64,000 bases of DNA from Hormiphora californensis (taxonomy: Eukaryota > Animalia > Ctenophora), in NCBI GenBank assembly GCA_020137815.1, contig CM035355.1, positions 6,448,001 through 6,512,000 of the forward strand, written 5' to 3'. The notes under the pieces are model-generated. The model was given only the letters and a program-made list of their open reading frames with translations, was not told the origin of the DNA and did not search any database. Each line of letters begins with the position of its first letter. Positions within the stretch are counted from its first letter, which is position 1. The translations under genes and the position numbers were made by a program. Of this stretch, positions 9,301-54,800 are shown piece by piece.

Positions 9301-10000
9301 CAGTGGAAGTTTTTTAATATTTTCGAATGACTTTCAACATGCCAGTCCTCAGAGTTACCAATTCAGTTGCCATGGCAACGGTTTTATTGACGTTGAAAGT
9401 GAAAGAACCACCCGGCGAAGCCGGGTGGGTTATTAAAAACCCTTCCTTGAGGCGCACCCAGTGGGTGCGCTAGTCGTCTAAACTTTCAGAAACTATATCG
9501 CGAATTTGTGAAACTCTATTTTTAAGGGTCTCAAATCGCGTCTGAAGTGTTAAGACTGTATGAAAATAGATATGACGACAGTGCGTTTTTCACCATAGCG
9601 ACCTCAAATCTTGTCCAATCGATCTCAAACTTGGTCAGCATCTTTATCTAGATGAGCCTGATACTAATTTTCCACTAGCATGACGTTATAACGTCGTGAT
9701 GTCACGCTATGACGTCAAAATGACGTCAAAATTGAAATTTTCGTATTTTAGCGATTCCTGACGGTCTTTACACGTTCTGCTACGTCCAGACATGTCTTAC
9801 ATCGTATTTCATATCAGAAAATACCAAAAATATACCCCAATTATGCCAAAAACTAACAGAAATTAGTTGGCTGGAAAGGTGACCACTTTTGTTGTCAAAC
9901 TGACACCTTTGCCCGGCCCGGGTTATGGATATCATCGATGGGGTAAATCAGGAAGTTTGAGAAGAAAGAAAGAGAGATAAAGAGAGAGGGAGAGAGAGAG

Positions 10001-33570: not shown

Positions 33571-34051
33571 CTATGATACGAAAGAACAACCTCGGAAATA
33601 TCCAGATCTGCATCACGTGACCTGTGTATTGACTAGAGTTCAGATAAAACGTAATGCAAGTCTCGATTGCCATGCGGATTCGCACTGTTCTGAACTCTGA
33701 CTGGTCAATACAGATCGCAGGGTGAAGACCTGAACATTTCCGAGGCTCCTCAAGAAGCATGCTGCAATTATTGTAGGATTTTTAGCGAACCAACTTGTTG
33801 TCATGGGTAGTTAGATGTAGAACATTTTATGTGTTGACCCCTGATCTATGTTATGAAGTGAATTATTTGTTTTGACTTTGTATCCGATCGCATTTTATAC
33901 TCAATGTTTTCCCTTTATTTCTGCAGTTTTCCTAACCTCGGGTCATACCAATTTCCCCGAATCTTTTCCACTACAGAGATATTTTCCCAACCCTGGCCCT
34001 TGACCTTTACAATGAATTCCTCTCACTTCCTAGGAACCAATTGGTACGTCC

Positions 34052-36547
34052 ATGGCTGATCCACCTGCAAAGCGGCCCTGTCTCAACATCGACAAGTCCT
34101 CTCGGGAGCTACTTCAACTTCTTAGGAAGAACGATGATTCAAGGGATTACCCCACATTAAACTCTCTACTACGAAACATCTTGACGGAGTATTGTCAATC
34201 CCCAGATACGCTTGAGGTTCTCCATAAATCCAGATTCATGGACTCTTTCGTCACTTTAATGGCCAGCAAAAATCTTCCTTCTGATCTTGCGAACACCATC
34301 CTCTCCATCCTCCACGACGTCTCAGGACATAAGGAGTTGTTTGAAGTCATCCTGAAACTAAATTGTGGTGATATCGTGATTAGCAACTTTTTCCATGATC
34401 CAAGGTGCTACTATAGATCCCTTCGGTTCATAAACAAGATTAGAGAAAATGGTTACCAAGTTCGACTTGACACGAATATCCTTGAACCGATAATTTGCTA
34501 TCTTGAGGGTCATTTTTCGTCTGAGCAACCGAACGCTGTTCCGGATGAAAGTTATGGTTTGACGTTTGAAGAATTCGTCCCTTTAATCTCCTGTCTTAGT
34601 GATATTGAAATTATTATGTACAGGTTAAACGGATCGAAAAAGATGTTTCAATTTGTGGTAAGGGCTGCTAAACTATACCTGAGGACCCGATGCTTGGAGA
34701 AAGTACTCGTATTCCTGCTAACGGAACAGGCTATGATTTTTATGGTGTTGTCGCTACCAGATCATAAATCCGTCGTCAAGGAAATGAGACCTATCCTGCC
34801 TGAAATGGTTGAGGAAGTCTGTAAGTTGACCCCAGAGTGCCTGCTTGATCTTTATGTTGAGGATGATGAAGGAGTGGTGCTGTTTGGTGTGGCTGAAGAG
34901 AGCAGGAACAAAGTTTTCGGAGAGAGACTCCGAGTTGGGAGTGTTAGCGAATGTCAACAAATCTTGTACAGATTTCAGAGATGGAAGCCGATAACGATAC
35001 TCTTTACAGATGAGCTTGGTCAAGGCATTCATTGTTTCGTCTCTGAAACTCGGGAGCCTTTAGGTCAGTGGCTCGAAGCCTCACGAGATGCTTTGGCTAT
35101 CTTTCACAGCACACGATTTCCTTCACCAGGAGACGGTCTTCTTGAGGCTCTCGTAGCGTTCCTAAAGGCCCTTCGAGGTATGGATTGTGAAAAATCAGTC
35201 AAACCGGTGGTCACGAAAATAGCAGAGAACATCATGAAATTTTTTATGAATGCACTCAATGAAGGCCGCCATCCGTTATTAGAGGAACATATCATCCTGA
35301 TAGTGGATTTGTTCGCAAAGTATCAGACCAAACGGTTTAGCTCATTCTTTACATCGTATGTAAGCTCCTGGTCTCATCGCGATAAGCCTTCCCAAGTTCT
35401 ACAGACATCTTTCTTTTGGACCACCCTATCCCACCCGTACCTCCGGACTCTTGGAAGCCGGCACCTTTACGATTTCGGTTACAGAAACGGAAAACTCTCT
35501 GATTTTCAGTTTAGATTTTTGTTCTTTGACATCGATAACATCCTGCTCATGCTTGCTGAACTTCGGCAGACTTCCCCAGAGAAATATTTGGTGGTACTTT
35601 CCGACTACTTCCTCGCCAAAACGGATCAGACCTACTTGGAATGTGCTAAACCACATCGGTCCGAAGTTTCTTCTGTCTGTGAAGTTATACAACTAAAGGA
35701 GGACGACCCGCCCGAGTTACTTCTACGTCTCTTCCTCTGTCTGATCAGATATTTTCAGGGATGCTATTCAAAGTTTCGTCGGCCACGGAAGGAACAGTTT
35801 GAATACAAAGACATCAGGCTCTATGAAGGTCCGGATATTAGGGTACCCAGGGTATGCGAGGTGGTCAAACCAAGACCAACCAGATATCAAAAGGAAGCGT
35901 GGCACTGGCAACCATCTACAGGATTCACCAAATGCCAAGATAGGACCGTGAAAATCCAAGGAGAGGAGGGAGTGCCAGGGGTGGAGGTGAACGAACGAGA
36001 TCTGTCCTCTGTCGTTTTGAACAACATGCTGGTATCTAGTTTCGAGGAGAGTCGTACCTTGACCATTACCGTTCCTTCAGCCCCTCAGCGCATCCTCGAG
36101 GCCCTAAAATTGATCCTCAGCCAAAACGGGAAGGGTGTGGGGGATCATGCCTCGCTACAGGATGTCTGGGAGTGGCTGTTACCATGGGCAACGATGTACC
36201 AAGTCGACGGGGTCTTCAACTATCTGGTTTATGTGATGAGAGAGAAACTACCGGCCCGGCAGCGTCGTCTGCCATGTAACACCATGATGTCAGATGAATG
36301 GATGGTTGAGTTCGCAGTTCGCAGCAAACACCCTGCCTGGTTGATGCTTGTCTCTCAGAAGTTTCTAGTGGTTGATAACACTATGGTCGATCTACAGCCA
36401 GAGGATCTGATTTTCTCGATAACCGAACTGGTCAACGCAGCTAATACGAGAGATAACTATCTTGTTAACATAATCAGTTACTATTGTTGTCCTCGCCGTG
36501 GTGGTGAGGGTAGTGATTATACAGAGTATGCGAGTAGCGATGAGTGA
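34052..36547 (+). CDS. Tandem family paralog 1: 831-aa helical-repeat protein with C-terminal BTB-like domain (ARMC5-like architecture), intact
   Basis: Long single ORF. LSSVVLNNMLVSSFEESRTLTITV...LEAL...WATMYQVDGV matches the BTB pattern (S.yF.aMl.g.F.Es....i.l...A..y.v..l). The N-terminal part is Leu-rich and helical. Confidence 0.7.
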   Translation: MADPPAKRPCLNIDKSSRELLQLLRKNDDSRDYPTLNSLLRNILTEYCQSPDTLEVLHKSRFMDSFVTLMASKNLPSDLANTILSILHDVSGHKELFEVILKLNCGDIVISNFFHDPRCYYRSLRFINKIRENGYQVRLDTNILEPIICYLEGHFSSEQPNAVPDESYGLTFEEFVPLISCLSDIEIIMYRLNGSKKMFQFVVRAAKLYLRTRCLEKVLVFLLTEQAMIFMVLSLPDHKSVVKEMRPILPEMVEEVCKLTPECLLDLYVEDDEGVVLFGVAEESRNKVFGERLRVGSVSECQQILYRFQRWKPITILFTDELGQGIHCFVSETREPLGQWLEASRDALAIFHSTRFPSPGDGLLEALVAFLKALRGMDCEKSVKPVVTKIAENIMKFFMNALNEGRHPLLEEHIILIVDLFAKYQTKRFSSFFTSYVSSWSHRDKPSQVLQTSFFWTTLSHPYLRTLGSRHLYDFGYRNGKLSDFQFRFLFFDIDNILLMLAELRQTSPEKYLVVLSDYFLAKTDQTYLECAKPHRSEVSSVCEVIQLKEDDPPELLLRLFLCLIRYFQGCYSKFRRPRKEQFEYKDIRLYEGPDIRVPRVCEVVKPRPTRYQKEAWHWQPSTGFTKCQDRTVKIQGEEGVPGVEVNERDLSSVVLNNMLVSSFEESRTLTITVPSAPQRILEALKLILSQNGKGVGDHASLQDVWEWLLPWATMYQVDGVFNYLVYVMREKLPARQRRLPCNTMMSDEWMVEFAVRSKHPAWLMLVSQKFLVVDNTMVDLQPEDLIFSITELVNAANTRDNYLVNIISYYCCPRRGGEGSDYTEYASSDE

Positions 36548-37269: not shown

Positions 37270-37839
37270 TGCACACTCCTACTCACTGCATTCACTGCTG
37301 CAGAGGACCGGACTTGATTGCTACGTTTGAAATTGGCGCTGGACACATGGGGGATACTGAGAGAGAGAAAAAAAAAAGAAAAAAAAAAAGAAAAGAAAAG
37401 AAATAAAGAGAGAAAGAGAATTTAACTTGTTTGTTTAGAATTATGCTAATAATAGATTTTCTTTTAACATAGTAGGGTACAGTGGTTGTAATTGTGCTGT
37501 CTGCAGGAAGGGGTGTATACACACAGTGCCACTACAATTAGTGTAATCCCGGTATCATAATAAGTAATCATAATGTAATATTATTAGTGTGTCATACCCT
37601 ATTACTTGGGTTACTGCCTAGTGCCTACTGCACTAGGTGGTAACAGGGGTGAACCAATGAGTTAGAGTGAGTCGGCGACAAGTACTGTAACTAGAGTTAG
37701 CGTGTTTAGGAAAGTCAGAGATGCAGGGAGTAGTTCCGAGACAGTTCAGATTTATACCTATCCTTCTATTTTGCACCACCAAGTTCTGTGTTTTATAAAA
37801 GTCTAAAAAGTCACCATAAAAGCCCGCAAGCGGAGAGCA
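37270..37839 (+). repeat. 5' LTR
   Basis: Matches 46562-47125 apart from A-tract lengths, a visible substitution and the first 7 nt. Confidence 0.92.
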
Positions 37840-37841
37840 TT

Positions 37842-37859
37842 TGGAACCCCCGGCGGGAC
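37842..37859 (+). promoter_or_regulatory. Primer-binding site (TGGAACCCCCGGCGGGAC)
   Basis: TGG-initiated 18-mer 2 nt after the LTR end, complementary to a tRNA 3' end (...GUCCCGCCGGGGGUUCCA). The isotype may be Arg; unverified. Confidence 0.85.
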
Positions 37860-37994
37860 TTCATACACCAGTGAGACGCACCTCCTTACCGAAGCTAAGT
37901 TCCCATCCAATCTTTTGCATTAATTTTGCTGTTTATCAAGTTTTATAATTATTAATTAGTTGCCCACAGATACGACAGGTTACTTTATTTTCAG

Positions 37995-39238
37995 ATGGGT
38001 TTGGATACAATGGATCAGCAAACTCCAGACCGGTCCGTACCTCCTGCTCCACGTCGAGATGCCTCAACAACCACACCTTTCAAATATCAAGCTACTTTAG
38101 ACTCTTTGACTGAGGAGCAGAAAGCAGCAGTTCGTGCGTACACCAATCACCATGTGCAAGAAGCCACGTCATTGGCTGCGGCATCCGAACTCAGGAAGAA
38201 CACTTCAGTGAATCCCTCAGCTAATATCAAGAGTAACTTTGCTAAGAGACCAGTCATGTTTCAACTTGATGATATGGATATAGACTTATTCCTCGACCGA
38301 TTTGAGGATTTTTTGGGACACACAGTGATTGCAGATAGCGACAAGATCCGGTTTTTCTGTTCATACCTGCCCGACAAATTAAACAGACGTCTCTCGCAGC
38401 AGGCGGATGTAAAAGCTAGGGAGGTATCCTGGGAGGAGTTTCAGGAGCGAGTGAAAGAGGCCGTGATGAGTATGAAACAGGAGACTGGGGCGCTGGCTAG
38501 AACCAAACTGAGAGAGCGGAAACAGTTGGAAGGAGAATCACTGAGAGACTATGCCGATGAACTGTTTCAACTTGCTAAGAAAGCCTGGCCCAGGGATGAG
38601 GATCATGCAGTCCGAGAAGTGATGCTGAAAGATATTTTAGCTAACGGTGCCAAAGTGGAGGAAGTAGCTGTTTACATTCTCCAGCATGCAGATACTAAAA
38701 CATTCAACACGCTGGTTCATGACGCAGATAAATTGGAGTCGTCATACAGGGTCAGAGCTGAACTGAAATCAAAAAGGGATGTGGAGGTAAACGTCCTTAG
38801 GGTCCAACAACAACCTACCGAGCGAGGACCAGATCCCTACCGACCTGTGAAACAAGATTACTATCCCTCTGTGCAGTATGGAAACGGACCCCGGCCCTCT
38901 TACTACTACAATCGAGATCATCAAGGTACGGACCGCGTCAGAGGAGAGGAGGAGGAGGAGGAGAGCCTCGCAGATGCTGGAACTGTGATCGCCCTGGTCA
39001 TATTGCCCGGAACTGCCGGAGCCCACGTCAACAACAAAACCGGTACCAAAACAATCATGCACATAGGGACCAATCTCACATGTTAGGGTACCAAGTCTAT
39101 AATGATAGGTGGGGGCAGCCCATGGGAAATCACCAAAATTATCCAGATCACCACACTCCGCACAATCCCCACATTCCTCAAAATACCCAGGCCCCGCAAG
39201 GTAGTGATCCTCAATCTGCACGTGTGTCAAAAAACTAG
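37995..39238 (+). CDS. gag: Gag with CCHC zinc knuckle (one single-base frameshift near 38950)
   Basis: Capsid-like region RKQLEGESLRDYADEL. RCWNCDRPGHIARNC lies in the adjacent frame after a GAG-repeat tract, and that frame ends AAAAAAC-TAG. Confidence 0.88.
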
Positions 39239-39262
39239 AAGATCCCTCTCTCGGCGAGAGGG
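39229..39262 (+). promoter_or_regulatory. -1 programmed ribosomal frameshift signal between gag and pol
   Basis: Slippery heptamer A AAA AAC (39229-39235) precedes the gag stop. A hairpin CCCTCTC-tcggc-GAGAGGG starts after an 8-nt spacer. The -1 frame reads openly into the protease. Confidence 0.85.
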
Positions 39263-42200
39263 TTTTTGAGAGCCTGCACTTTGAAATCTCGTCTGTAGAG
39301 TGCACCGCTCCGAGCATTGCTAGGCCTCTACTCATTGGAACTTGTTCTGGATGTCTTTACTTGGGTGTTACTATTAGAGAGAATTTGTTTCAAGCGCTTA
39401 TTGATTGTGGAGCATGTGTCAATCTTCTTTCATACAAGTTAGCTAAACGCTTGGACATTTGTGAGCATCTACGGGCTAGCAACGTTATGTTGGCTGGAGT
39501 TTCAGGGGCAAAGGTACAAACCCTTGGTAGTGTGTCCTTGATGGTTGAAGTGGGTGAATTTTGTGTCCCAGTTCGGTTTGTTGTGGCTGAAGTAGTGGAA
39601 GACTGTATTCTTGGGCAGGAGTTTCTCACTGAAAACGAGCTGGTGGTTAATTTCGGAAATAGGATGCTGATTGGTTCTGGGATAGAGGTTAAGCTCACAA
39701 TGCTTGATCGAGGGAAACAAAAGTACGGCTTGTGTACTACAGAAGAGTACAGTGAGGTTGGGAACTGGGTGATGAAATGTGGTGTAGTGATGGAAGGAGA
39801 GCTTGAGGAGCCGAGGGACGGTTCTTATGTTCTCAAATTTCAAGAGGAAATAAAATGGATGGTTGATGAAGAGGTGGAAGACCCGTTGGTAGTAGTAGTC
39901 TCGGGAGGAACACTGGAGCTACCAGTTAGTTTGGAGGGAGAAACTGAGCTGAGGATACCGAAGGGTTACCGAGTGGCTACAGTGGAACCTGTACATGATT
40001 TGTCTAGTGTAACGGCAAGGCAGCAGTATTCAGGGGATTTCGATAAGGAGCGTGTGAGAGTGAACTTCATAAACTTTTGAAGATTGAAAGTAAGGAGTAC
40101 CTTACACCTGATCAGCAGCAGTCCCTCAAACAACTCACACATGATTTTGCTGACATCTTTGCACTTGACCGGAGTGAGCTAACTTGCACAGACTTGATCG
40201 AGCATCATATCGATCTCACTACAGACAAACCGGTGAGAGCTCCTTATAGGCGTGTTCCATTGCATCTCAGAGAAGATTGTATAAAGGAGTTAAGAAGAGT
40301 TGCTGCAGTGTGGGATCATCCAGCATAGTGAAAGCGGCTATAACACGCCGGCTTTGGTCTTGAAGGGTAAAAATAAACTGAGGATAGTTCTGGATTTTAG
40401 GGAGTTGAATAAGATCACTGACAGATCGTACTGCACTGTACCTGCCCTCAACACCATTATTGCTGGTTGTGCTGGTGCTAAATTCTTCAGTTCATGTGAT
40501 TTTAAGGATGGGTTTCTACAGATCCCATTAAAGGACGAGCATCGCAAGTTTACAGCATTTGCGATACCAGGGATTGGCCATTTTGAGTTTTGTAGAATGC
40601 CACTGGGTCTGTGTTCATCTCCGGGTGTGTTTCAAACATTGATGGATCGTCTGTTAGCCGGATTACCTCCCACTGTTGCATCTGCTTTCATTGATGACAT
40701 TCTGTCTCCAGGAGAAACGGTTGAGCAGGCCTTGGAAAATTTGAAGGTGATTTTTGGCAGACTGAGGATTTCGAAGTTGAGACTTAGCCCTCACAAATGC
40801 AAGTTGTTGGAGACTAAACTTAAATTTTGTGGGGTCTACTTGAGTGCGAAGGGGATTGAGGCGGATGCTGAGAAGGTAGCTGCACTAAGGGAAATGCCGC
40901 TTCCCAAGTCGATTAAAGAGGCCCGGTGTATGATGGGAGCGTTTAATTGGTTTCGAAATCACATTCCTAAGTTCTCGGATAAGGCCAAGGGATTAACGGA
41001 CTGCTTAAGGAGCAGTGAGAAGTTTGAAGTAACTCTCGAGCTCAAGGAGAGCATTGAAACCCTTTTGGAGGAGCTCTGTAATCCTCCCATTCTTACGTAC
41101 CCTGATACTAAGAAAGAGATGATTGTGTACACGGATGCTAGTGAAAAGGGTATTGGTGGATCAATTGGACACATCATTGACGGGGAATATCATCCAATCG
41201 CTTACAGTTCAAAAGCGCTCACTCCAACTGAGCAGAGATGGCCCTCCTTTAAACGCGAGTTTTATGCATTGTGGTACCATATTACTCAAGCATGGCGTTT
41301 CTACTTGGTTGGGGCTAAATTCAAGTGCTACATCGACATGAAATCAATTACGCCGGAGGGTTTCTTGAAGCACAGCAACCAAGCCATTATGTTGAGGTGG
41401 TTCATGGACTTGTCGGCTTTTGATGTTGAGTTGATTTTTAAAGCGGGTAAAGATATGGATCTTCCTGATTGTTTGTCGAGGTTACCTAAAACCTCTTCAG
41501 AATTGTTTGAGTGGTGGTCTCAGGACAAACCTCTAAGTGAGGATGAAGAGAATGAGTCGGGGGAATGTGCAAGGGTCGCGTGGGTGCAGATTGGTAGCTG
41601 TTTGCCTGTGAATTGTTCCAGTGATGAAGCAACTGATGGGAATGAGGTTGTGAGTGGTTCTAAGGTAGGGGCTCATAGTGATACAGAAGGGACATTTGAT
41701 AAACCTTTGCCGCCTCCAAACAGTGACCGGCTGCGTGAAGTACAAAAGGGGAGTTTGGAAAGTGCAAGAAGTGGTAGTTTGGGTGAAAGAGAATGGGAGA
41801 CCAGAAACGTCCGAGGGGTTTTCAGAGTTCAAGCAGTGGGCGTGGAGATATTTTGAGCATCTGGTTTTGATGAATGATCAGCTCTGCTACAAGTACTTTA
41901 GATCTCCGTCGAGAAAGTTTGCAGCACTCATAGTTGTTCCTGATGAAGAGATTCAAAGAGTCATAGAGCTGCATCATGATCCCGATTTCTCAAGGGCACC
42001 AGGGTCCTAAGAAGACCCTAGGCAAAGTGAGGGACAAGTACTTTTTCAGGGGTATGACGTCAGCAGTTAAGATATTTTGTGAAACTTGTCCCTTATGTTT
42101 CTTACACAATCAGCCGTACAAACGAAATCCCGCAGCACCTATGAAGATGTTCATGTCATCGAGGCCCAATCAGCATGTTGCAATTGACTTGGTTGGCCCA

Positions 42201-43325
42201 ATTAGAGGGGGCTGTAACAAAAAGTGGATCTTGACGATCGTGTGCAAGTTCACTAGGATGGTTGAGGCTGTTCCGTTGACAAACGCTACAGCTGTTGTGA
42301 TAGCACGGGGTCTAGCAAACAATTGGGTTTTTAAGTATGGGGTGCCAGAGTGCATAGTGTCTGATAGAGGGGCGAATCTAACGACGGCTGTTGTAATTAA
42401 GGAGTTGTATGACGTTTTGGGGATAGAGAAGCGCCAAACAACAGCTTATCACCCCAAGGGTAATGGTCATGTCGAAGCCTATAACAAGGTGATGGTAGTG
42501 ACACTACGGAAAATGGTTGGAGAGTTTCCTAATACATGGCCAAACAAACTGCCTGCAGCCATATTTGCCATCAACAACTCTGTCTGTGAAAGTACGGGAT
42601 TTGCGCCTGCGTGTTTGTGGTTTGGAAGGGCTCTCAGAACCCCCACTGATTTAGTATTTGGGACGACCACTACGGAGTATTATGCTAGCAGTTATCACTG
42701 GGCTCGTAAGCTGTTTAAAGATGTGAGGGATACATTTAATATTGTAAGAGTGAACTCTAACAACACCCTCATGAAACATAAACTAGCTCATGACAAGAAA
42801 AAGAAGTTTCATCACACATATCAAGTGGGTCAGCGGGTGTTGGTGTGGAAACCTATAGCTCCGTGGGTAAAGGATTTTCGGAAGTTCAAGGTTGGGTTCT
42901 CTGGGCCGTGGGAAATCATTAAGGTCATCAGTGAATGGACATTTTTGGTAAAGTATGAAGCCACGGGGAAGCAAGAGGTAGTTCACTTTGACAAACTGAG
43001 GTTTATCGAAGACAGTTTACGAGCTACTCATTGGAACAAGAAACCTATGGGGCGGGGCACGAACAAAAATGTGACAGAGAAGGAACAAGAGACAGACTGT
43101 CACGTGGTGGATGAGGAAGATGAAAGTGATGAGGAGTTTCCGGGTGAGGAGATTTCTATAATGGACAACACTGGTTCTAATGTAGAAGAGCCAGAAAACT
43201 TCACTCTGGATAGTGAAGTGGTTCCTCAGCCCACACCGGTTGATGAAGGTCCAGTTGAAGAGGTGCAGACGGAAGAAAGCGATGAAGAACCTGATGTACC
43301 TAGGTATAACCTGAGACCTCGTTAG
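39235..43325 (+). pseudogene. pol: Pol polyprotein (PR-RT-RNaseH-integrase) with four single-base frameshifts (~40070, ~40290, ~41750, ~41990)
   Basis: ALIDCGA (protease); RIVLDFRELN, MPLGL, AFIDDIL (RT); VYTDASEKGIG (RNase H); GH..KKT...C..C, VAIDLVGP, IVSDRG, GHVEAYNK (integrase). Confidence 0.92.
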
Positions 43326-43742
43326 TGTATCGGGTAATGGGGTGAAAGATCATGGTGGGGTCCTGTATTCTATCGGTAGACGGTACCTTAGCATTATCAC
43401 TTGCATCATTCAAGATCACCTAGTTTTAGAAAGAAAAAGAAAATGTTCAAAAATATTATGAGAAAGTGTGTGAAAATCGTGTGCATATAGGTATAATAAG
43501 AAGGAATTCATATATCACATTAGAACACTCATACCGGTAAAGAGATGAACTGAAAGACTCTACAGGGTGATAAGAATGTGATATATGATTGATTTGCATA
43601 TTTTAGTTTTTGTGTTGATACCCCCTGCATCTCCCCACGAGAAAATTTTGGGTCATCGTGAGTAGAAGAGTAGTTTGGAGTTTGAGTTGAGACTAGTATG
43701 CGAGGTATACTAGAGATGTAATTAGTTGTTTGGTTCACCTCT

Positions 43743-44211
43743 CGGGGGGGGGTTCAGGATAAATGGTTCGGACGTATATGCCACTTAAGGGGGTGGGTGT
43801 TTTTTCAAAATTGCCACTTAATGTTTTTCGCTAAATGGTCATTTTTTGGCCAAATTTGGTCAATTTTCGGCCAAATTTGGTCAATTTTCGGTAAAAATTG
43901 AGATTCTTCGAGGTAGACCTGAAAAATTTTCAATTTTCAAAATTCAAATTTCAATTTTCTTGCGCGCGAAATTTTTTCTGGAAATTTTTTGGTTTTGTTC
44001 CCAGAAAACAGCCTAAATTTTGCCATTTTTTGGGCAAAAAAGCTAGTTTTTCGGTAAATTTTGGGGGTTTAGGGGTCTATTTGGGGTCTGACCACTAAAA
44101 GAAACTGATTAAGTGGTCAATTTTAGGGGGTGGGGGGGTCCTTTTGGATTTTGACCACTTAAGCAATTTTTAGGCATATACGTCCGACCACTTAATCCTG
44201 AACCCCCCCCG
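43743..44211. mobile_element. MITE nested in the gypsy 3' region, 7-bp TSD CACCTCT
   Basis: TIR cG9ttcaggat..tggt(t)cggacgtatatgcc at both ends. cacctct at 43736-43742 and 44212-44218. Confidence 0.88.
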
Positions 44212-44471
44212 CACCTCTGATAGTGTTATTATATAGCCTCTGTTTACTGTTAGTATGAATAATTCAGAATGAGATACAAGTGTTATGAAAGTGGAAGTAA
44301 TTTTGATATCTCCTTCTGGTGATCAACACACACACACGCCCTCCGTACAACGGTTATATAGGGGAATCTCACACACACACGGGCAGATCTCGGTCAAGGA
44401 GAGATTAATTGATTATTCAGAATAAAGAGATCTGAGCAAGAATTAAATAGGGAAGAAAATCGAAAAATACT

Positions 44472-44544
44472 GGGTTCGACCGGGAATTGAACCAGGGACC
44501 TCCAGAGAGACACGCTCGATGCTCTACCACTGAGCTACCGAACC
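44472..44544 (-). ncRNA. tRNA-like cloverleaf, inverted copy
   Basis: Reverse complement of 44841-44913. Confidence 0.7.
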
Positions 44545-44840
44545 CCTGTACAGATCGCATTTCTTCACACTGGTTCAATTCCCGGTCGAACCCAGTATTT
44601 TTCGATTTTCTTCCCTATTTAATTCTTGCTCAGATCTCTTTATTCTGAATAATCAATTAATCTCTCCTTGACCGAGATCTGCCCGTGTGTGTGTGAGATT
44701 CCCCTATATAACCGTTGTACGGAGGGCGTGTGTGTGTGTTGATCACCAGAAGGAGATATCAAAATTACTTCCTCTATCACATGGTGTCTAGCTAAGGGCA
44801 TGTGCTTGAACATAGTGTGAAGAAATGCGATCTGTACAGG

Positions 44841-44913
44841 GGTTCGGTAGCTCAGTGGTAGAGCATCGAGCGTGTCTCTCTGGAGGTCCCTGGTTCAATT
44901 CCCGGTCGAACCC
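44841..44913 (+). ncRNA. tRNA-like cloverleaf (pseudo-tRNA/SINE head), copy 1
   Basis: Acceptor stem GGTTCGG/TCGAACC, A box TAGCTCAGTGGTAGAGC, B box GGTTCAATTCC and TTTTT just downstream. The anticodon arm is non-canonical. Confidence 0.75.
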
Positions 44914-45160
44914 AGTATTTTTCGATTTTCTTCCCTATTTAATTCTTGCTCAGATCTCTTTATTCTGAATAATCAATTAATCTCTCCTTGACCGAGATCT
45001 GCCCGTGTGTGTGTGAGATTCCCCTATATAACCGTTGTACGGAGGGCGTGTGTGTGTGTTGATCACCAGAAGGAGATATCAAAATTACTTCCTCTATCAC
45101 ATGGTGTCTAGCTAAGGGCATGTGCTTGAACATAGTGTGAAGAAATGCGATCTGTACAGG

Positions 45161-45233
45161 GGTTCGGTAGCTCAGTGGTAGAGCATCGAGCGTGTCTCTC
45201 TGGAGGTCCCTGGTTCAATTCCCGGTCGAACCC
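45161..45233 (+). ncRNA. tRNA-like cloverleaf, copy 2
   Basis: Appears identical to copy 1, +320 bp. Confidence 0.75.
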
Positions 45234-45480
45234 AGTATTTTTCGATTTTCTTCCCTATTTAATTCTTGCTCAGATCTCTTTATTCTGAATAATCAATTAA
45301 TCTCTCCTTGACCGAGATCTGCCCGTGTGTGTGTGAGATTCCCCTATATAACCGTTGTACGGAGGGCGTGTGTGTGTGTTGATCACCAGAAGGAGATATC
45401 AAAATTACTTCCTCTATCACATGGTGTCTAGCTAAGGGCATGTGCTTGAACATAGTGTGAAGAAATGCGATCTGTACAGG

Positions 45481-45553
45481 GGTTCGGTAGCTCAGTGGTA
45501 GAGCATCGAGCGTGTCTCTCTGGAGGTCCCTGGTTCAATTCCCGGTCGAACCC
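45481..45553 (+). ncRNA. tRNA-like cloverleaf, copy 3
   Basis: Appears identical to copy 1, +640 bp. Confidence 0.75.
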
Positions 45554-45800
45554 AGTATTTTTCGATTTTCTTCCCTATTTAATTCTTGCTCAGATCTCTT
45601 TATTCTGAATAATCAATTAATCTCTCCTTGACCGAGATCTGCCCGTGTGTGTGTGAGATTCCCCTATATAACCGTTGTACGGAGGGCGTGTGTGTGTGTT
45701 GATCACCAGAAGGAGATATCAAAATTACTTCCTCTATCACATGGTGTCTAGCTAAGGGCATGTGCTTGAACATAGTGTGAAGAAATGCGATCTGTACAGG

Positions 45801-45873
45801 GGTTCGGTAGCTCAGTGGTAGAGCATCGAGCGTGTCTCTCTGGAGGTCCCTGGTTCAATTCCCGGTCGAACCC
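45801..45873 (+). ncRNA. tRNA-like cloverleaf, copy 4
   Basis: Appears identical to copy 1, +960 bp. Confidence 0.75.
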
Positions 45874-46561
45874 AGTATTTTTCGATTTTCTTCCCTATTT
45901 AATTCTTGCTCAGATCTCTTTATTCTGTTATGAAAGTGATATGAACGTGATATGAAGTGTTGAAATGAATAAGAGATTAAGGCTCGATCGAGCATGGGGT
46001 TGTATTGAGACAAGCCTCAGTTTTCCTACCTAAGACAGCTGCTTTAGATATCAGATATGAATATTTACTTAAATTATACGCATGTATAATCGCGTTCGAG
46101 TAACTGGGTACAACTGGTACACCCCTAATGAGCTCACTTTTCCCTGGTTGTACCCCTCCCTCTTATTGTCCTAAAAGTGATGTGTTAAGTGGCAAGTGTT
46201 CACGAAATGAGAATATGTGAAAAGATATGTGAATGAAATGAATAAGTGATATACAGAGGTTATTAAAGAGTTGAGGAGAAAGAGTTCAAAAAATGATAGA
46301 GGGGAGAGAGTGAGAGAGTTACAGTACTCCCTCAGTGTCTAGCATCGACGTCTCAATTTACAGTACGGGAGAATCTCATTCCCGCTTGAAAGTTTGTTCC
46401 TGATCACCAACAAAACATGGATCTCAATCCAAGCCTACTAACATCAAACCAACCTGAAACCTCGGACATCTACCTAAATGAAAGCCAGTTCCCGATCTAC
46501 ACAAGTTGATAGTGAAGCACCCTGTACTATGACACCTGCCACCGCTGAACTTGAAGAGCAT

Positions 46562-47125
46562 TCCTACTCACTGCATTCACTGCTGCAGAGGACCGGACTT
46601 GATTGCTACGTTTGAAATTGGCGCTGGACACATGGGGGATACTGAGAGAGAGAAAAAAAAAAGAAAAAAAAAAAAGAAAAGAAAAGAAATAAAGAGAGAA
46701 AGAGAATTTAACTTGTTTGTTTAGAATTATGCTAATAATAGATTTTCTTTTAACATAGTAGGGTACAGTGGTTGTAATTGTGCTGTCTGCAGGAAGGGGT
46801 GTATGCACACAGTGCCACTACAATTAGTGTAATCCCGGTATCATAATAAGTAATCATAATGTAATATTATTAGTGTGTCATACCCTATTACTTGGGTTAC
46901 TGCCTAGTGCCTACTGCACTAGGTGGTAACAGGGGTGAACCAATGAGTTAGAGTGAGTCGGCGACAAGTACTGTAACTAGAGTTAGCGTGTTTAGGAAAG
47001 TCAGAGATGCAGGGAGTAGTTCCGAGACAGTTCAGATTTATACCTATCCTTCTATTTTGCACCACCAAGTTCTGTGTTTTATAAAAGTCTAAAAAGTCAC
47101 CATAAAAGCCCGCAAGCGGAGAGCA
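46562..47125 (+). repeat. 3' LTR (5' boundary uncertain)
   Basis: Direct repeat of the 5' LTR; ends ...ggagagCA followed by the TSD. Confidence 0.9.
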
Positions 47126-49659
47126 CATGATCATCATCAACTTTATGGCGGATCCAAGGTGTTTATACAGGTCCCTACGGTTCATCAATAAGCTTAAAGA
47201 CAATGGAACCACTGTGAGTGTTAAAGGAAGTGTCCTCAACCAAATAGTAAGGTATATTGAGCATCACCTTGTCTATACTGAAGGACCGAACCATGTTCCG
47301 GATAAGATTATCGTTCTGATATTTAATATATTCGCCACTTTGATTACTGGTTCTTGTATTGAAACTCTCAGGACGAAGTACAACGGAAACGAATCAATGA
47401 TTTTGTTTAAAAGTATTGTTCGGGCCGCTAAGCTAAACAAAAGGTTCCCAAACTTGGATAAAGAACCCTTATTTCGGCTAACAGAACAGGCGATCGCTTT
47501 TATGGCCCTGGCGCATCCAAATCATTCTACTCTCGTTGAGGAAATGGAAACTATCTTGCCCAGCTTGGTGAAGGAAATGTGTATCAAAGATCCAGAGAGG
47601 CTCATTGACCTTTACACAGAGGATGGAACTCGTGTCTTGCGTAATGTGGCCGAAGAGGTGAGGAACGCAAATTTTGCAGACATTCTAAAAGTTGGCAGTT
47701 TTGCACAATGTCAAGAGGTCTTTGAAACAATTCAACGGTTGAAAAGTATAGTAGTAACCCAAGATCTGCGCCAGGGCATTCTTTCTTTTATGTCTGAAGC
47801 TCGAGAGCCCGTGGATGATTGGATAGATTACTCACTATTTGCTCTCTGTCTCTTCGATAAGAAGCGAGATACACCTACGGAAGTAAACCTCCTTGATGCT
47901 ATCGTCGGATTTCTCAAGGGACTCCGAGATATGAATTGTGAGAGATCAGTCAAACCAGAGGTCACAAGGATAGCGGAGGACATCATGCGACGTTTCAATG
48001 AAGCACTTTATGATGGTGAAGATGGTTTGTTAGATGAACATATCACCCTGATAATGGACCTGTTTGCCAAGTACCAAACCAAACGATTTAGCCGGTTCTT
48101 CAAGACGTATTTCTTCCATGGATCCTGGAACAATTCCAAAAAGTCGCACGAACTTCTACAAAAATCTTTCTTTTGGCTCACCATATCCCATCCGTACCTC
48201 CGGACTGTTCCAAACCGGGATCTTTATTGTCGCAGTTACAGAAACGGAAAACTCGATAGTTTTCACTGGGATTCATTAATTTACTTTAACATGGATCGTC
48301 TCCTGTCCATGCTTGCTGAACTTTGGCAGACTTCCCCAGAGAAATACTTAGTGGTGCTTTCCGATTTCTTCCTCGCTAAAGAGGATCAAAGTGACACATT
48401 CTGTGCTAAATCGCATCGGTCTGCAGTTTCGTCTGTCTGTGAAGCGATACAGCTAAGAGAGGACGACCCACCCGAGTTACTTCTACGTCTCTTCCTCTGT
48501 CTGATCAGATATTTTCAGGGGTTCAGCTCAAAGTTCCACCAGGCTTGGGAGTACCAGTTTGATTATATGGGGATAAAACTCTGCAATACTGAAAGTGTGG
48601 ACATTAGGGTGTGTGAGGTGGTCAAACCAAGACCAACCAAATATCGAAAGGCAACGTGGCACTGGCAACCATCTACAGGATTCACCAAATGCCAAGATAG
48701 GACCGTGAAAATTCTAGGAGAGGAGGGAGCGACAGGTGTGGAAGTGACTGAACGAGATCTGTCCTCTGTCGTTTTGAACAACATGCTGGTATCTAGTTTC
48801 GAGGAGAGTCGTACCCTGACCATTACCGTTCCTTCAGCCCCTCAACGCATCCTCGAGGCCCTGAAATTGATCCTGACCCAAAACGGGAAGGGTGTGGGCG
48901 AGCATGCCTCGCTACAGGATGTTTGGGAGTGGCTGTTACCATGGGCAACGATGTACCAAGTCGACGGGGTCTTCAACTATCTGGTTTATGTGATGAGAGA
49001 GAAATGTAACACCATGATGTCAGATGAATGGATGGTTGAGTTCGCAGTTCGCAGCAAACACCCTGCCTGGTTGATGCTTGTCTCTCAGAAGTTTCTAGTG
49101 GTGGATAACACTATGGTCGATCTTTTCTCGATTACTGAACTGGTCAACGCAGCTAATACGAGGGATAACTATCTTGTTAATATAATCAGTTACTATTGTT
49201 GTCCTCGCCGTGGTGGTGAGGGTAGTGATTATACAGAGATAGAGAGTAGCGATGAGTGAAAGTGTAAAGCGTATAATTGTATCTCCAGGAAAAAGGATAG
49301 TTTTTTAAGAGTTGTAATTTTAATTGATTTGTACACCAAGGGCTTAAGCAGCCGATATCATGTTACATTTATTTTATACTAGCACTATTTATTAAATCAT
49401 GTTAATTAATTTATTATTTTTAAACCGAAATGACAATTGCTTAATGCAGGCAAGTTTTTTACAATTTATTACCACAGTTTATACAATCAACCTATTTTAC
49501 TATTCTAATTCAAGTTTAAAAAATTCTGCCTTGTCTTATTATAATGTGTTGGCTAAGACCCCTGATAGCCCAAACCGCAAAACTCCAACACCCATTCTAA
49601 CCAAAATAATCTACCAACTAACACACATAACTTATTCCTAGGACCCTATTGGTACATTC

Positions 49660-51504
49660 ATGGCTGATCCACCTGCAAAGCGGCCCTGTCTCAACATCGA
49701 CAAGTCCTCTCGTAATGTGACCGAAGAGGTCAGGAACGCAAATTTTGCAGACATTCTCAAAGTTGGCAGTTTTGCACAATGCCAAGAGGTATTTGAAACA
49801 ATTCAGCGGTTGAAAAGGCTAGTAGTAACCCAAGATCTGTGCCAGGGCATTCTTTCTTTTATGTCTGAAGCTCGAGAGCCCGTGGATGATTGGATAGATT
49901 ACTCACTATATGCTCTCTGTCTCTTCGATAAGAAGCGAGATACACCTACGGAAGTAAACCTCCTTGATGCTATCGTCGGATTCCTTAAGGGACTCCGAGA
50001 TATGAGTTGTGAGAGATCAGTCAAACCAGTGGTCACAAGGATAGCAGAGGACATCATGCGACGTTTTAATGAAGCACTTTATGATGGTGAAGATGGTTTG
50101 TCAGATGAACATATCACCCTGATAATGGACCTGTTTGCCAAGTACCAAACCAAACGATTTAGCCGGTTCTTCAGGATGTATATCATTCGTGGGTCTTCGA
50201 GTAGTTCCAAAATGTCGTCCAAGATTCTACAGAAATCTTTATTTTGGCTTACGCTATCCCATCCGTACCTTCGGACTGTTGGAAACCGGGATCTTTATCG
50301 TTGCAGTTACAGAAATGGAAAGTTCTCTGATTTTGATTGGAGTTTATGTGTTTATTTAGACATTGATCATATCCTACCCATGCTGGCTGAACTTCGGCAG
50401 ACTTCCCCGGAGAAATACTTAGTGGTGCTTTCCGATTTCTTCCTCGCTAAACCGGATCAAAGTGGCACTTTTTGTATTAAATCCCATCGTTCCGCAGTTT
50501 CTTCTGTCTGTGAAGCGATACAGCTAAGAGAGGACGACCCACCCGAGTTACTTCTACGTCTCTTCCTCTGTCTGATCAGATATTTTCAGGGGTTCAGCTC
50601 AAAGTTCCACCAGGCTTGGGAGTACCAGTTTGATTACATGGGGATAAAACTCTGCAATACTGAAAGTGTGGACATTAGGGTATGTGAGGTGGTTAAACCA
50701 AGACCAACCAAATATCGAAAGGTAACGTGGCACTGGCAACCATCTACAGGGTTCACCAAATGCCAAGATAGGACCGTGAAAATCTTAGGAGAGGAGGGAG
50801 CACCAGGGGTGGAAGTGACCGAACGAGATCTGTCCTCTGTCGTTTTGAACAACATGCTGGTATCTAGTTTCGAGGAGAGTCGTACCCTGACCATTACCGT
50901 TCCTTCAGCAACTCAGCGCATCCTCGAGGCCCTGAAATTGATCCTGACCCAAAACGGGAAGGGTGTGGGCGAGCATGCCTCGCTACAGGATGTTTGGGAG
51001 TGGCTGTTACCATGGGCAACGATGTACCAAGTCGACGGGGTCTTCAACTATCTGGTTTATGTGATGAGAGAGAAACTACCGGCCCGGCAGCGTCGTCTGC
51101 CATGTAACACCATGATGTCGGATGAATGGATGGTTGAGTTCGCAGTTCGCAGCAAACACCCTGCCTGGTTGATGCTTGTCTCTCAGAAGTTTGTTGTGGT
51201 AGATAACACTATGGTCAATCTGCAGCCAGAGGATCTGATTTTCTCGATAACCGAACTGATCAACGCAGCTAATACGAGAGATAACTATCTTGTTAACATC
51301 ATCAGTTACTATTGTTGCCCGTGTCGATCATCAGCAGAGGAGGATCATGGAAGTTTACCCGATCCGAGTGATGACTGGATAAATCAAGATGATGTCGTTT
51401 GTGATGATGGCGGTCAGGGCGGTGAAGGCAGTCAGGGCGATGAGGGTGAAAGTGATAGTGATAGTCTAGAGTTTGATTACGAGAGTTCGATTACGAGAAT
51501 TTAA
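49660..51504 (+). CDS. Tandem family paralog 3, 614 aa, open frame with in-frame loss of roughly 260 N-terminal residues
   Basis: MADPPAKRPCLNIDKSSR joins directly to NVTEEVRNANF. The BTB region is intact and there is an acidic tail. Confidence 0.8.
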   Translation: MADPPAKRPCLNIDKSSRNVTEEVRNANFADILKVGSFAQCQEVFETIQRLKRLVVTQDLCQGILSFMSEAREPVDDWIDYSLYALCLFDKKRDTPTEVNLLDAIVGFLKGLRDMSCERSVKPVVTRIAEDIMRRFNEALYDGEDGLSDEHITLIMDLFAKYQTKRFSRFFRMYIIRGSSSSSKMSSKILQKSLFWLTLSHPYLRTVGNRDLYRCSYRNGKFSDFDWSLCVYLDIDHILPMLAELRQTSPEKYLVVLSDFFLAKPDQSGTFCIKSHRSAVSSVCEAIQLREDDPPELLLRLFLCLIRYFQGFSSKFHQAWEYQFDYMGIKLCNTESVDIRVCEVVKPRPTKYRKVTWHWQPSTGFTKCQDRTVKILGEEGAPGVEVTERDLSSVVLNNMLVSSFEESRTLTITVPSATQRILEALKLILTQNGKGVGEHASLQDVWEWLLPWATMYQVDGVFNYLVYVMREKLPARQRRLPCNTMMSDEWMVEFAVRSKHPAWLMLVSQKFVVVDNTMVNLQPEDLIFSITELINAANTRDNYLVNIISYYCCPCRSSAEEDHGSLPDPSDDWINQDDVVCDDGGQGGEGSQGDEGESDSDSLEFDYESSITRI

Positions 51505-51897
51505 TAGTCCTTGTAAGAGTGACATAGGTCTAATTTTAAACCAAAGCCTTTTTAAAGAACTGTTTCGCAAGAGTGTTTCATTATTATTTTAACATGTAAC
51601 ACGTAAGTTTTATACCTACAGCACAAAGTATCTTATAAAATTAATTTATTATTTTTAATTCGAAATGACCATTGCTTAACGTGGGCTGATTTTTTACAAT
51701 TTATTAACTCAGTTTATAAAATCAAACTATTTTATTATTTTAATTCAAGTTTATAAAATTTTACCGTGTTTTATTATATAATGCGTTAGCTAAGACCCCC
51801 TGATAGCCCGAACCCCAAATCCTCAACTCCCACTCTAACTAACATAATTTACCAACTAACACACATAACTTATTCCTAGGACCCTATTGTTACACTC

Positions 51898-54800
51898 ATG
51901 GCTGATCCACCAGCAAAGCGGCCCTGTCTCAACATCGATCAGTCCTCTCACAAGCTACTTCAACTTCTTAGGAAGAACGATGATTCAAGGGATTACCCCA
52001 CAATAAACTCTCTACTACGGAACATCTTGACGGAGTATTGTCAATCTTCAGATATGCTTGAGGCTCTCCATCGATCCAGATTCATGGACTCTTTCGTCAC
52101 TTTACTGTCCATCAAAAACCTTCCTTCCGACCTTGCTAATACTATCCTTTCTGTTCTTACCCGCATCTCTGGTCACCGAGAGTTGCTGAAAGATGTTCTT
52201 AGGTCGAATGATTTGAACATGATCATAAGCAACTTTATGGCGGATCCAAGATGTGTTTATAGGTCCCTACGGTTCATCAATAAGCTTAAAAACAATGGAA
52301 CCACTGTGAGTCTTAAAGGAAGTGTCATCAACCAAATAGTAATGTATATTGAGCATCACCTTGTCTATACTGAAGGACCGAACCATGTTCCGGATAAGAT
52401 TATCGTTCTGATATTTAATATATTCGCCACTTTGATTACTGGTTCTTGTATTGAAACTCTCAGGACGAAGTACAATGGAAACGAATCAATGATTTTGTTT
52501 AAAAGTATTGTTCGGGCCGCTAAGCTAAACAAAAGGTTCCCAAACTTGGATAAAGAACCCTTATTTCGGCTAACAGAACAGGCGATCGCTTTTATGGCCC
52601 TGGCACATCCAAATCATTCTACTCTCGTTGAGGAAATGGAAACTATCTTGCCCAGCTTGGTGAAGGAAATGTGTATCAAAGATCCAGAGAGGCTCATTGA
52701 CCTTTACACAGAGGATGGAACTCGTGTCTTGCGTAATGTGGCCGAAGAGGTGAGGAACGCAAATTTTGCAGACATTCTAAAAGTTGGCAGTTTTGCACAA
52801 TGTCAAGAGGTCTTTGAAACAATTCAACGGTTGAAAAGTATAGTAGTAACCCAAGATCTGCGCCAGGGCCTTCTTTCTTTTATGTCTGAAGCTCGAGAGC
52901 CCGTGGATGATTGGATAGATTACTCACTATTTGCTCTCTGTCTCTTCGATAAGAAGCGAGATACACCTACGGAAGTAAACCTCCTTGATGCTATCGTCGG
53001 ATTTCTCAAGGGACTCCGAGATATGAATTGTGAGAGATCAGTCAAACCAGAGGTCACAAGGATAGCGGAGGACATCATGCGACGTTTCAATGAAGCACTT
53101 TATGATGGTGAAGACGGTTTGTTAGATGAACATATCACCCTGATAATGGACCTGTTTGCCAAGTACCAAACCAAACGATTTAGCCGGTTCTTCAAGACGT
53201 ATTTCTTCCATGGATCCTGGAACAATTCCAAAAAGTCGCACGAACTTCTACAAAAATCTTTCCTTTGGCTCACCATATCCCATCCGTACCTCCGGACTGT
53301 TCCAAACCGGGATCTTTATTGTCGCAGTTACAGAAACGGAAAACTCGATAGTTTTCACTGGGATTCATTAATCTACTTTGACATGGATCGTCTCCTGTCC
53401 ATGCTTGCTGAACTTCGGCAGACTTCTCCAGAGAAATACTTAGTGGTGCTTTCCGACTTCTTCCTCGCTAAAGAGGATCAAAGTGACACATTCTGTGATA
53501 AATCGCATCGGTCTGCAGTTTCTTCTGTCTGTGAAGCGATACAGCTAAGAGAGGACGACCCACCCGAGTTACTTCTACGTCTCTTCCTCTGTCTGATCAG
53601 ATATTTTCAGGGGTTCAGCTCAAAGTTCCACCAGGCTTGGGAGTACCAGTTTGATTACATGGGGATAAAACTCTGCAATAGGGTAGACCGGGGTAATTTG
53701 GACGGTTTTGGCATTCAATTGGTATTTCAAGAGCCATTAATTTACTTAATCAATTAGTTAGCTACTCAATTTGTGCAACTGAACCTTTATCTTGAGCCTC
53801 AGAACAAATTTGAATCGAAAACACAACTTTTAGATAGCTAATTAATCTTGTTAATGAAGGTAAGTCGGAATATTTTTGATCGCGAGACACGGGGCAATTT
53901 GGACTAGTGGCTTCTACACCAATCACAATGCGCGCATTCAGTCACGTGACCGCGACACACCACATTGCCCCAGCTGTAAATCTGCGATGTAAATCAGACC
54001 GAGGTTGGGGCTATTTGGACAAACTTAGATTGTAGCCACAGTTTTTGAGATATCGATTTCAAACTTTTCAGTCATCTAGTAATTTAGTATCCCGTGATAT
54101 TCCTTTTTTCAAAATTAGTTAATTAAGTAGTAATTAGCCTAATTAACCAAAAAATTAAGTGTTCATCAGATCTATATCTATAGGGTGCATTTTCGAAAGC
54201 TCAGGATTAGCCTAGTCGATTAGAAAAAGATTTAATCTAATCCCAAATAGGGTTTTTGAGAAAATCGACATCAAAGATCAAAAAACCACAAATAAAGCTA
54301 CGGTTTTCAAAGGAATGCTGTTTGTGTTTTCAGGTGCTTACAAGGCCAGAAATTACTATTATGGGGATCCAGTCTAATTAATCATGTTAGTGGCCGATTC
54401 CCACTCAATGCAATTCCCTGGGGTTACTATAGCAATGGAGTTTGTTACCATAGCAACCGGCGAATTTGCATTAATGTACTATTTTCTTGCTCCAAATTCA
54501 CCCATTACATCCGTATTATTAGACTATCGATTATTTAAACATGATTGTGAGTCACAATGAGACATTAGACTACCTTCAGTTACCAGCCAGTCAGTGGCTT
54601 TGGTTATCAAATGTATGCCTATTGCTCTAAGTTAGCCTGTAATTTATCCCTTTATTCAGTTATATCAGCTGCATATAATGGATGATTATCATGATAAAAC
54701 ACTACTTTTGGTCATCAAAGCACCAGTCCTAGATATTCTGGAGCACCCTATGAAGTTGGTTCGTCGAATGCCACACCATGGATTGACTTGTTACCTTGGC

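What the first reader, a model, noticed from the sequence alone, without database searches (positions are those of the whole stretch)
44281..45938. Retroposed concatemer of a 320-bp tRNA-like unit inside a gypsy element: possible circular-RNA/retrozyme-like mobile element
Seen: apparently identical 320-bp units. Each has a 73-nt cloverleaf (intact acceptor stem with an extra G:C pair, A and B boxes, T5 terminator, broken anticodon arm), a TATATAA box, (GT)n tracts and a hairpin-prone segment. The array is circularly permuted, starting in the T-arm rather than at the tRNA 5' end. It has an inverted first copy, lacks a poly(A) tail and is bounded by a single 13-bp TSD, so it inserted as one event. 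Known: ordinary SINEs insert as monomers with the tRNA at the 5' end. Tandem permuted ~300-bp units with inverted 5' parts are typical of Penelope-mobilised elements, retrozymes and schistosome SM-alpha, which use hammerhead ribozymes. I find no CUGANGA core on either strand. Inference: a hammerhead-less relative in which the tRNA-like fold (RNase P/Z cleavage) or an unrecognised ribozyme processes multimers, with rolling-circle reverse transcription producing the concatemer.
Basis: partly seen in the sequence, partly recalled or inferred. Interest (0 to 1): 0.82.

Follow-up and report, generated by a model that had tools for sequence, protein, structure and literature searches.

The report
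tRNA-derived Penelope-style tandem retroelement
A 320-base non-coding unit carrying a decayed tRNA sits here as four identical head-to-tail copies plus one inverted partial copy inside one 13-base target duplication; it belongs to a high-copy family and was likely inserted in one step from a multi-unit RNA by a Penelope-type jumping gene, with no recognisable ribozyme.

Summary
44570-45927 is 4.24 identical 320-bp units, preceded by an exact 279-bp inverted piece (44293-44571), inside a 13-bp target duplication, without poly(A), in the 3' non-coding part of a young gypsy element. Read contigs show a high-copy family under two organism labels. Many other copies are short, 5'-truncated fragments that end at one of two internal places: unit position ~118-149 or 252. 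These are the two outer ends of this insertion. All four forward units that reach position 291 carry an allele at 0.3% of depth, so they come from one template. The layout matches Penelope-like element (PLE) insertions and internal, two-strand priming (PMC3846280, PMC8557442, PMC11167929). Best reading: a non-autonomous, hammerhead-less, tRNA-bearing PLE parasite copied from a multi-unit RNA. A circular RNA is not excluded but is unsupported: no ribozyme match, no unusual fold (z +0.2), mixed RNA evidence, and tRNA-processing cuts explain neither end. No autonomous partner could be tested. The scan noted the same layout before in another animal genome (334-bp unit, e1-7881736; unchecked by me). 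New variant of a known kind.

The parts
44281..44293 (+). left copy of the 13-bp target site duplication (last base shared with the element)
44293..44571 (-). inverted, 5'-truncated 279-bp copy (unit positions u294 to u252, counting the tRNA start 44841 as u1); its outer end is recurrent end B
   Evidence: exact match; end B in other copies
44472..44544 (-). tRNA-like fold in the inverted copy
   Evidence: Rfam RF00005 39.8 bits
44570..45927 (+). forward array, 4.24 identical 320-bp units, from u50 (T-arm) to u125-127; its outer end lies in recurrent end zone A
44841..44913 (+). tRNA-like fold of the first full unit (repeated at 45161, 45481, 45801): A and B boxes, 8-pair acceptor stem, broken anticodon arm, T5 just behind
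45270..45288 (+). small predicted stem-loop (u110-128, in every unit) at end zone A, with one compensatory change in a variant; candidate RT recognition site (weak)
   Evidence: fold z -1.9, 8 of 200 shuffles as good; variant rows
45330..45412 (+). segment u170-252 ((GT)n, TATA-like, (GT)n) that also occurs alone as an 83-bp dispersed copy ending at u252
   Evidence: contig pieces
45926..45938 (+). right copy of the 13-bp target site duplication (first two bases shared with the element)
37274..47125 (+). host gypsy-type LTR element; the array lies between the integrase ORF and the 3' LTR

Best explanation
This is one young insertion of a high-copy, tRNA-derived non-coding retroelement that likely borrows the RT-endonuclease of a Penelope-like element (PLE) and likely was copied from a linear multi-unit RNA. 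Shown: one target duplication, head-to-head inversion, identical units, no poly(A), and recurrent internal 3' ends shared with other copies. Inferred steps: (1) a tandem source locus is read through, probably by Pol II, because a Pol III transcript should stop at the T5 run about 80 nt in; (2) the PLE protein nicks both strands of an AT-rich target about 13 nt apart; (3) both 3' ends prime internally on the tRNA-sense RNA, one in zone A (u125) and one at site B (u252); (4) the cDNAs of about 1358 and 279 nt are joined head to head through a 2-nt microhomology; (5) many other events likely abort early and leave 80-100-bp fragments. No monomer processing or ribozyme is needed. The tRNA is likely a passenger or a promoter of short transcripts, not the cutter.
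For: Anatomy. End B recurs: loose ends behind u252 in 8 contigs of X5 and 7 of X7, flank agreement about 0.5. Summed depth falls behind it 13-22x in X9 and 6-11x in X5. End zone A recurs: pieces stop at u118-149 and depth falls 16x in X7 and 5x in X1. Short copies flanked on both sides: 5 of 27 listed pieces and 4 of 24. All 4 forward units carry an allele at 0.31% of depth in X3 and X5, and absent from X9: one template. Contigs cross both cuts I made in the unit, in DNA runs and in RNA run X16. Probable empty site in a second individual (X5 contig 18). Literature: head-to-head inverted pLTR with 8-10-bp TSD (PMC3846280); hammerhead-less Naiads in ctenophores and multicopy head-to-tail non-autonomous Chlamys (PMC8557442); internal RT start, both strands cut and extended, hammerhead dispensable (PMC11167929); short 5'-truncated PLE insertions, median 128 bp (PMC9977147).
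Against: No autonomous partner was found or could be tested: no genome is held, and collection scans found 0 matches. The two ends are 127 nt apart, not the 30-40 nt of the PLE tail, and share no significant motif (score 12; 6 of 305 other positions score higher). The TSD is longer than the 8-10 bp in PMC3846280. The depth drop behind B is only about 2x in X3, and summed contig depth is not copy number. Only 21 of 397 and 16 of 209 loose-end rows were shown. RNA is mixed: 0 contigs on the unit in X22 and X15. The TATA box is not conserved. No source array was seen, and the rare-allele depth in X3 (6.5-9 single-copy equivalents) leaves limited room for one.
Confidence: 0.5

Rival explanations
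1. Same PLE-type insertion, but the template is a 320-nt circular RNA copied by rolling-circle reverse transcription; the circle is made by host tRNA-processing and ligation enzymes or by an unknown ribozyme.
For: Identical units with a private allele, and little depth left for a separate source array. In RNA run X16, 9 contigs cover all 30 bins at fairly even depth (12-43) and together close the circle. One X16 variant keeps an acceptor-stem pair by a C-G to U-A change. Several listed short copies start at u33, in the anticodon loop. Hammerhead retrozymes of this size make circles (PMC7229834).
Against: No ribozyme family at E<=1. The four one-mismatch CUGANGA sites lack a usable GAAA and stem. 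Circular fold is no better than shuffles (z +0.23 plus, -0.63 minus), whereas the coral retrozyme circles are described as highly self-paired (PMC7229834). Contigs cannot show circularity, and DNA carry-over in X16 is untested. X22 and X15 have none of the unit. The u33 starts adjoin two polymorphic sites and may be alignment stops.
Confidence: 0.18
2. One insertion of only about 1.2 forward units plus the inverted piece, expanded afterwards in place by unequal exchange between its 78-bp terminal direct repeats.
For: It explains perfect identity and the shared private allele without a long template. TSD-(SINE)n-TSD arrays occur in a bivalve and are ascribed to recombination (PMC11481361); SINE-derived satellites occur in reptiles (PMC10702118, abstract).
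Against: The locus is very young (LTRs 99.5% identical; probable empty site in X5), so several exchanges would be needed quickly. Even 1.24 units need a template crossing the unit boundary, so a tandem or circular RNA is still required.
Confidence: 0.14
3. A LINE (L2/CR1/RTE/R4 type) rather than a PLE retroposed a read-through RNA of a tRNA-SINE-derived satellite, with L1-style twin priming giving the inversion.
For: 5' truncation, TSD and inversion with microhomology are general TPRT signs (established knowledge). A stem-loop lies at end A, as in L2-type tails (recalled).
Against: No poly(A) or simple-repeat tail. Two internal ends instead of one 3' terminus. In L1 twin priming the inner priming site is not a fixed position, but end B recurs in independent copies.
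Confidence: 0.13
4. DNA-level origin: a Helitron/Replitron-type rolling-circle element, reinserted circular DNA, or an assembly artefact.
For: Tandem arrays, (GT)n tracts and hairpins occur in such elements (recalled). A tandem Helitron-like pair lies at 8852-9480. One Replitron makes variable TSDs (PMC10288648).
Against: The ends are not TC...CTAG, and there is a 13-bp TSD, a head-to-head inversion and polarised truncation. Read depth of the private allele (6.5-9 single-copy equivalents in X3) fits a real multi-unit array.
Confidence: 0.05

Closest known systems
Non-autonomous EN+ Penelope-like elements (Chlamys-N/MRC1; Naiad-type hammerhead-less PLEs; PMC8557442, PMC9977147)
   Same: Head-to-tail multicopy insertion, adjacent inverted 5'-truncated copy, no hammerhead, many short truncated copies. 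Naiads are listed in two ctenophores.
   Different: The unit carries a tRNA-derived fold with A/B boxes; the two outer ends are 127 nt apart; no homology to an autonomous PLE has been shown.
Animal non-LTR retrozymes (PMC7229834; bioRxiv 10.64898/2026.07.22.740005)
   Same: About 300-bp non-coding tandem unit, long TSD, no LTR/PBS/PPT, proposed PLE dependence.
   Different: No type I hammerhead, no unusually stable fold, circle not shown, tRNA inside.
Schistosome Sm-alpha/Sj-alpha (PMC2770079)
   Same: tRNA-derived SINE-like element in very high copy; described as satellite DNA in the cited title.
   Different: Sm-alpha has a hammerhead; this unit has none.
Tandem tRNA-SINE arrays of the bivalve Scapharca, and SINE-derived satellites (PMC11481361, PMC10702118)
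   Same: TSD-(unit)n-TSD arrays and palindromes of tRNA-related units.
   Different: Those start with a complete tRNA head and end in a LINE-derived tail; here the tRNA is internal to a closed repeat with two internal ends.

Membership tests
non-LTR retrozyme | tandem non-coding unit of a few hundred bases, long TSD, no LTR/PBS/PPT | tested here: met
non-LTR retrozyme | type I hammerhead in each unit | tested here: not met
   no ribozyme family at E<=1; no CUGANGA; 4 one-mismatch sites without a usable GAAA or stem
non-LTR retrozyme | abundant circular RNA | not testable with these tools
   only contigs; X16 covers the whole unit, X15 and X22 none of it
non-autonomous EN+ PLE | adjacent inverted 5'-truncated copy, head to head | tested here: met
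non-autonomous EN+ PLE | partial or multicopy tandem inside a short TSD, no poly(A) | tested here: met
   TSD 13 bp against 8-10 bp in PMC3846280
non-autonomous EN+ PLE | two internal RT start sites 30-40 nt apart (optional tail) | tested here: inconclusive
   two recurrent ends, but 127 nt apart; zone A itself spans about 30 nt
non-autonomous EN+ PLE | 3'-end or pLTR homology to an autonomous PLE in the same genome | not testable with these tools
   no genome held; no significant other match to the unit in the window
tRNA-derived SINE | tRNA-related region with A and B boxes | tested here: met
tRNA-derived SINE | monomer with tRNA head at the 5' end and poly(A) or simple-repeat tail | tested here: not met
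   array starts at u50 and u294 and has no tail; listed short copies start at u7, u33-39 or u170
Sm-alpha type SINE | tRNA-derived region plus hammerhead | tested here: not met
   hammerhead absent
functional tRNA gene repeat | intact anticodon arm with invariant anticodon loop | tested here: not met
   3 Watson-Crick pairs; loop positions u32 and u33 vary at 39% and 60% of depth in X3
Helitron | TC...CTRR ends, no TSD | tested here: not met

The most novel reading that the evidence does not exclude
A ribozyme-free small circular RNA: the tRNA-like fold recruits host tRNA-processing and ligation enzymes to cut and circularise the 320-nt unit, and a Penelope-type RT copies the circle round and round from two internal start sites. 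That would be a retrozyme life cycle in which a tRNA mimic replaces the hammerhead, possibly arisen more than once in animals.
Probability: 0.15. Interest if true: 0.85.

Novelty: new variant of a known kind. Interest (0 to 1): 0.52.

Why it matters
SINE partners are normally LINEs. A tRNA-bearing element moved by Penelope-type machinery without a hammerhead would add a SINE-like parasite class for PLEs. It would also give a simple, recently active substrate for an open question: how PLEs build inverted-plus-tandem insertions and where their RT starts. That both outer ends of one insertion match the two recurrent ends of dispersed copies is a direct prediction of two-strand internal priming and can be tested genome-wide. 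If the RNA were circular, the interest would be much higher. Ten literature searches (judged from listings) showed no paper on a hammerhead-less tRNA-derived PLE-type tandem element; Repbase/Dfam entries and subscription papers were not searchable.

Tried and rejected
No whole genome was available. Pattern scans found 0 matches: metagenome contigs twice, viral contigs, genome contigs. So no second full locus could be read and no covariance model was built. The sequence look-up in earlier findings found no look-alike. Hidden hammerhead: the minus strand has a CUGGUGA core variant and a GUC triplet framed by a 7-bp stem (seen by eye), but no GAAA within 110 nt; another site has G8 changed to C and no stem II. 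Both rejected. A shared motif at ends A and B looked plausible by eye but was not significant. A viroid-like rod fold was rejected. The TATA box as a conserved promoter is not supported. The ARAGORN call of tRNA-Thr(TGT) is not trusted, because the loop is polymorphic; the parent tRNA was not determined. The pile of loose ends at 45925 (20, 14 and 17 contigs) is confounded by my cutting the unit 2 nt later, so zone A rests. The depth fall behind end B is at the edge of the laid stretch, so the fall is taken. Absence of the unit in X22 and X15 is no proof of silence. The protein search for the host gave only unnamed marine relatives above 55% identity and named animals and fungi at 47-54%, so it does not name the host.

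Full report
Observation. The finding is real. Tandem Repeats Finder and an exact comparison give 4.24 copies of a 320-bp unit at 44570-45927 with no difference. An exact 279-bp reverse-complement piece lies at 44293-44571, overlapping the forward array by 2 nt and forming a palindrome of 203-bp arms around a 74-nt spacer. A 13-bp duplication (44281-44293, 45926-45938) brackets the whole; it occurs only twice in the window and its chance is about 1.5e-6. Each unit holds a 73-nt tRNA-like fold (Rfam 39.8 bits) with 8 acceptor pairs and only 3 Watson-Crick anticodon-stem pairs. There is no poly(A). The insertion lies between the integrase ORF and the 3' LTR of a gypsy-type element whose LTRs differ by 2 mismatches and 1 gap, so it is young. 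Positions are given as u, with u1 = 44841. The forward array runs u50 to u125-127; the inverted piece runs u294 to u252. Both have the tRNA-sense 3' end pointing outwards, which fits priming from both target ends on the tRNA-sense RNA (inference).

Host. No genome is held. A host protein had no named close relative. Earlier notes on this genome call it a likely comb jelly and describe Penelope-type palindromic insertions there (unchecked by me). I treat 'ctenophore' as likely, not shown.

The family elsewhere. Twenty of 22 listed runs hold the stretch or part of it, under two organism labels and in marine metagenomes. I laid 8 of them, all contigs. DNA runs put 1437, 1120, 695 and 3873, 537 contigs on the stretches. 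Summed depth on the unit is about 1e5-1e6 in X3 and X5, against about 500 on the gypsy flank. This is no copy count, but it points to hundreds or thousands of copies. Copies are variable: several sites differ at 14-82% of depth in X3. At u291 the array's letter makes up only 0.31% of depth in X3 and X5 and is absent in X9, yet all four forward units that reach u291 have it. The units therefore come from one template lineage, not from template-jumping between unrelated monomers. Its depth in X3 equals about 6.5-9 single-copy equivalents, which fits a real array of four on one or both haplotypes and argues against an assembly artefact. In a second individual (X5), a 289-nt contig at flank depth (556) is laid only over 45929-46043 and runs 174 nt further left in sequence that is not the unit. 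This is probably the empty site, though its letters were not shown.

Two recurrent ends. Loose ends pile behind u252 in X5 (8 contigs) and X7 (7 contigs) with flank agreement near 0.5, i.e. different neighbours. Depth falls behind u252 by 13-22x in X9 and 6-11x in X5, but only about 2x in X3. With the other end placed centrally, pieces stop at u118-149 (8 contigs at u118 in X1) and depth falls 16x in X7 and 5x in X1. Short copies flanked on both sides by other sequence make up 5 of 27 listed pieces (u7-109, u33-122, u39-125, u170-252, u171-252) and 4 of 24 (u33-118, u36-86, u170-252, u171-252). The X7 and X9 pieces are the same sample and probably the same two loci. Only 21 of 397 and 16 of 209 loose-end rows were displayed. 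So many copies are short fragments ending in zone A or at site B, and this insertion uses A at one end and B at the other. The two ends share no significant motif. A small stem-loop at A (u110-128; 8 of 200 shuffles as stable) shows one compensatory change in one variant and a broken pair in another, so it is a weak candidate recognition site.

RNA. Metatranscriptome X16 gave 9 contigs covering all 30 bins at depth 12-43; two variants cross the cut, and the pieces together close the circle. One variant keeps an acceptor pair by C-G to U-A and turns a T-stem mismatch into U-G, but changes a D-stem pair to U-U. X22 (possibly RNA of the same species label) gave 0 contigs; X15 gave 3, all on the gypsy flank. 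Contigs show neither strand nor circularity, and DNA carry-over was not controlled. Expression is therefore only hinted.

Ribozyme and fold. Rfam at E<=1 found only tRNA and weak unrelated hits. There is no CUGANGA; four one-mismatch sites lack a usable GAAA or stem. Linear and circular folds are no better than shuffles (z 0.03 and -1.07; +0.23 and -0.63). RNase P or Z would cut at u0 and about u74 (established tRNA processing), which matches neither end. The TATA box is replaced in many copies.

Mechanism. The typical Penelope insertion has direct pLTRs plus an adjacent head-to-head inverted one inside an 8-10-bp TSD (PMC3846280). Naiads lack hammerheads, occur in ctenophores and share the tandem/inverted layout; non-autonomous Chlamys elements form multicopy head-to-tail insertions (PMC8557442; supplement rows). 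A purified PLE protein cuts and extends both strands at AT-rich DNA, starts internally at two sites of an unprocessed multi-copy RNA, and does not need hammerhead cleavage (PMC11167929). The target here is about 69% AT. The simplest model is therefore two-strand internal priming, at A and B, on a read-through multi-unit RNA, with the two cDNAs joined at a 2-nt microhomology (confidence 0.5). A fold-back of the long cDNA resolved at B would give the same structure and cannot be told apart here. Rivals: circular template 0.18, local expansion of a 1.2-unit insert 0.14, LINE partner 0.13, DNA-level origin or artefact 0.05. The PLE partner is inferred from architecture only.

Comparison and novelty. 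It works like a non-autonomous PLE and like a non-LTR retrozyme in size and layout. It fails the retrozyme and Sm-alpha tests (no hammerhead) and the canonical SINE test (no 5' head, no tail). PLE membership is met on architecture and untested on partner homology. tRNA-derived elements with hammerheads (Sm-alpha, PMC2770079) and tandem SINE arrays (PMC11481361) are known, so each part has precedent; the combination was not seen in ten searches (listings only). It is a lead that the design recurs, not independent proof. Verdict: new variant of a known kind, interest 0.52.

What I saw of each paper. PMC11167929: parts 1-2 of 4. bioRxiv 10.64898/2026.07.22.740005: parts 1-3 of 5 (supplements not seen). 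Passages only: PMC8557442 (plus two rows of one supplement), PMC7229834, PMC2770079, PMC9977147, PMC10794172 (not used), PMC11481361, PMC3846280, PMC10288648. PMC10702118: abstract and outline. Hammerhead core, Helitron end and L1 twin-priming features are recalled, not from a call.

Noticed in passing
window 8852-9480: Two tandem ~317-bp copies (87% alike) with TC...CTAG ends and GC-rich hairpins near the 3' end: likely a non-autonomous Helitron pair.
   Followed up: partly
window 43743-44211: MITE-like insertion with G-run/C-run terminal inverted repeats and a 7-bp flanking duplication, 70 bp left of the array in the same gypsy 3' region.
   Followed up: partly
window 34034-36547, 47106-49259, 49642-51504, 51880-53757, 55528-56220: Tandem family of long related ORFs, split by the gypsy insertion; the one tested has no Pfam match.
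   Followed up: partly
window 56764-58711: Long inverted arms (83-97% alike) with internal 55-bp tandem units: a foldback- or MITE-like element.
   Followed up: no
window 28848-29253: Inverted pair of about 80 bp, one arm with degenerate TTAGGG repeats.
   Followed up: no
window 45193 (u33), contigs: Several short family copies begin at u33, inside the anticodon loop (6 contigs in X3, 4 in X5). It may be an alignment stop at two adjacent variants, or a real RNA 5' end from an anticodon-loop cut.
   Followed up: partly
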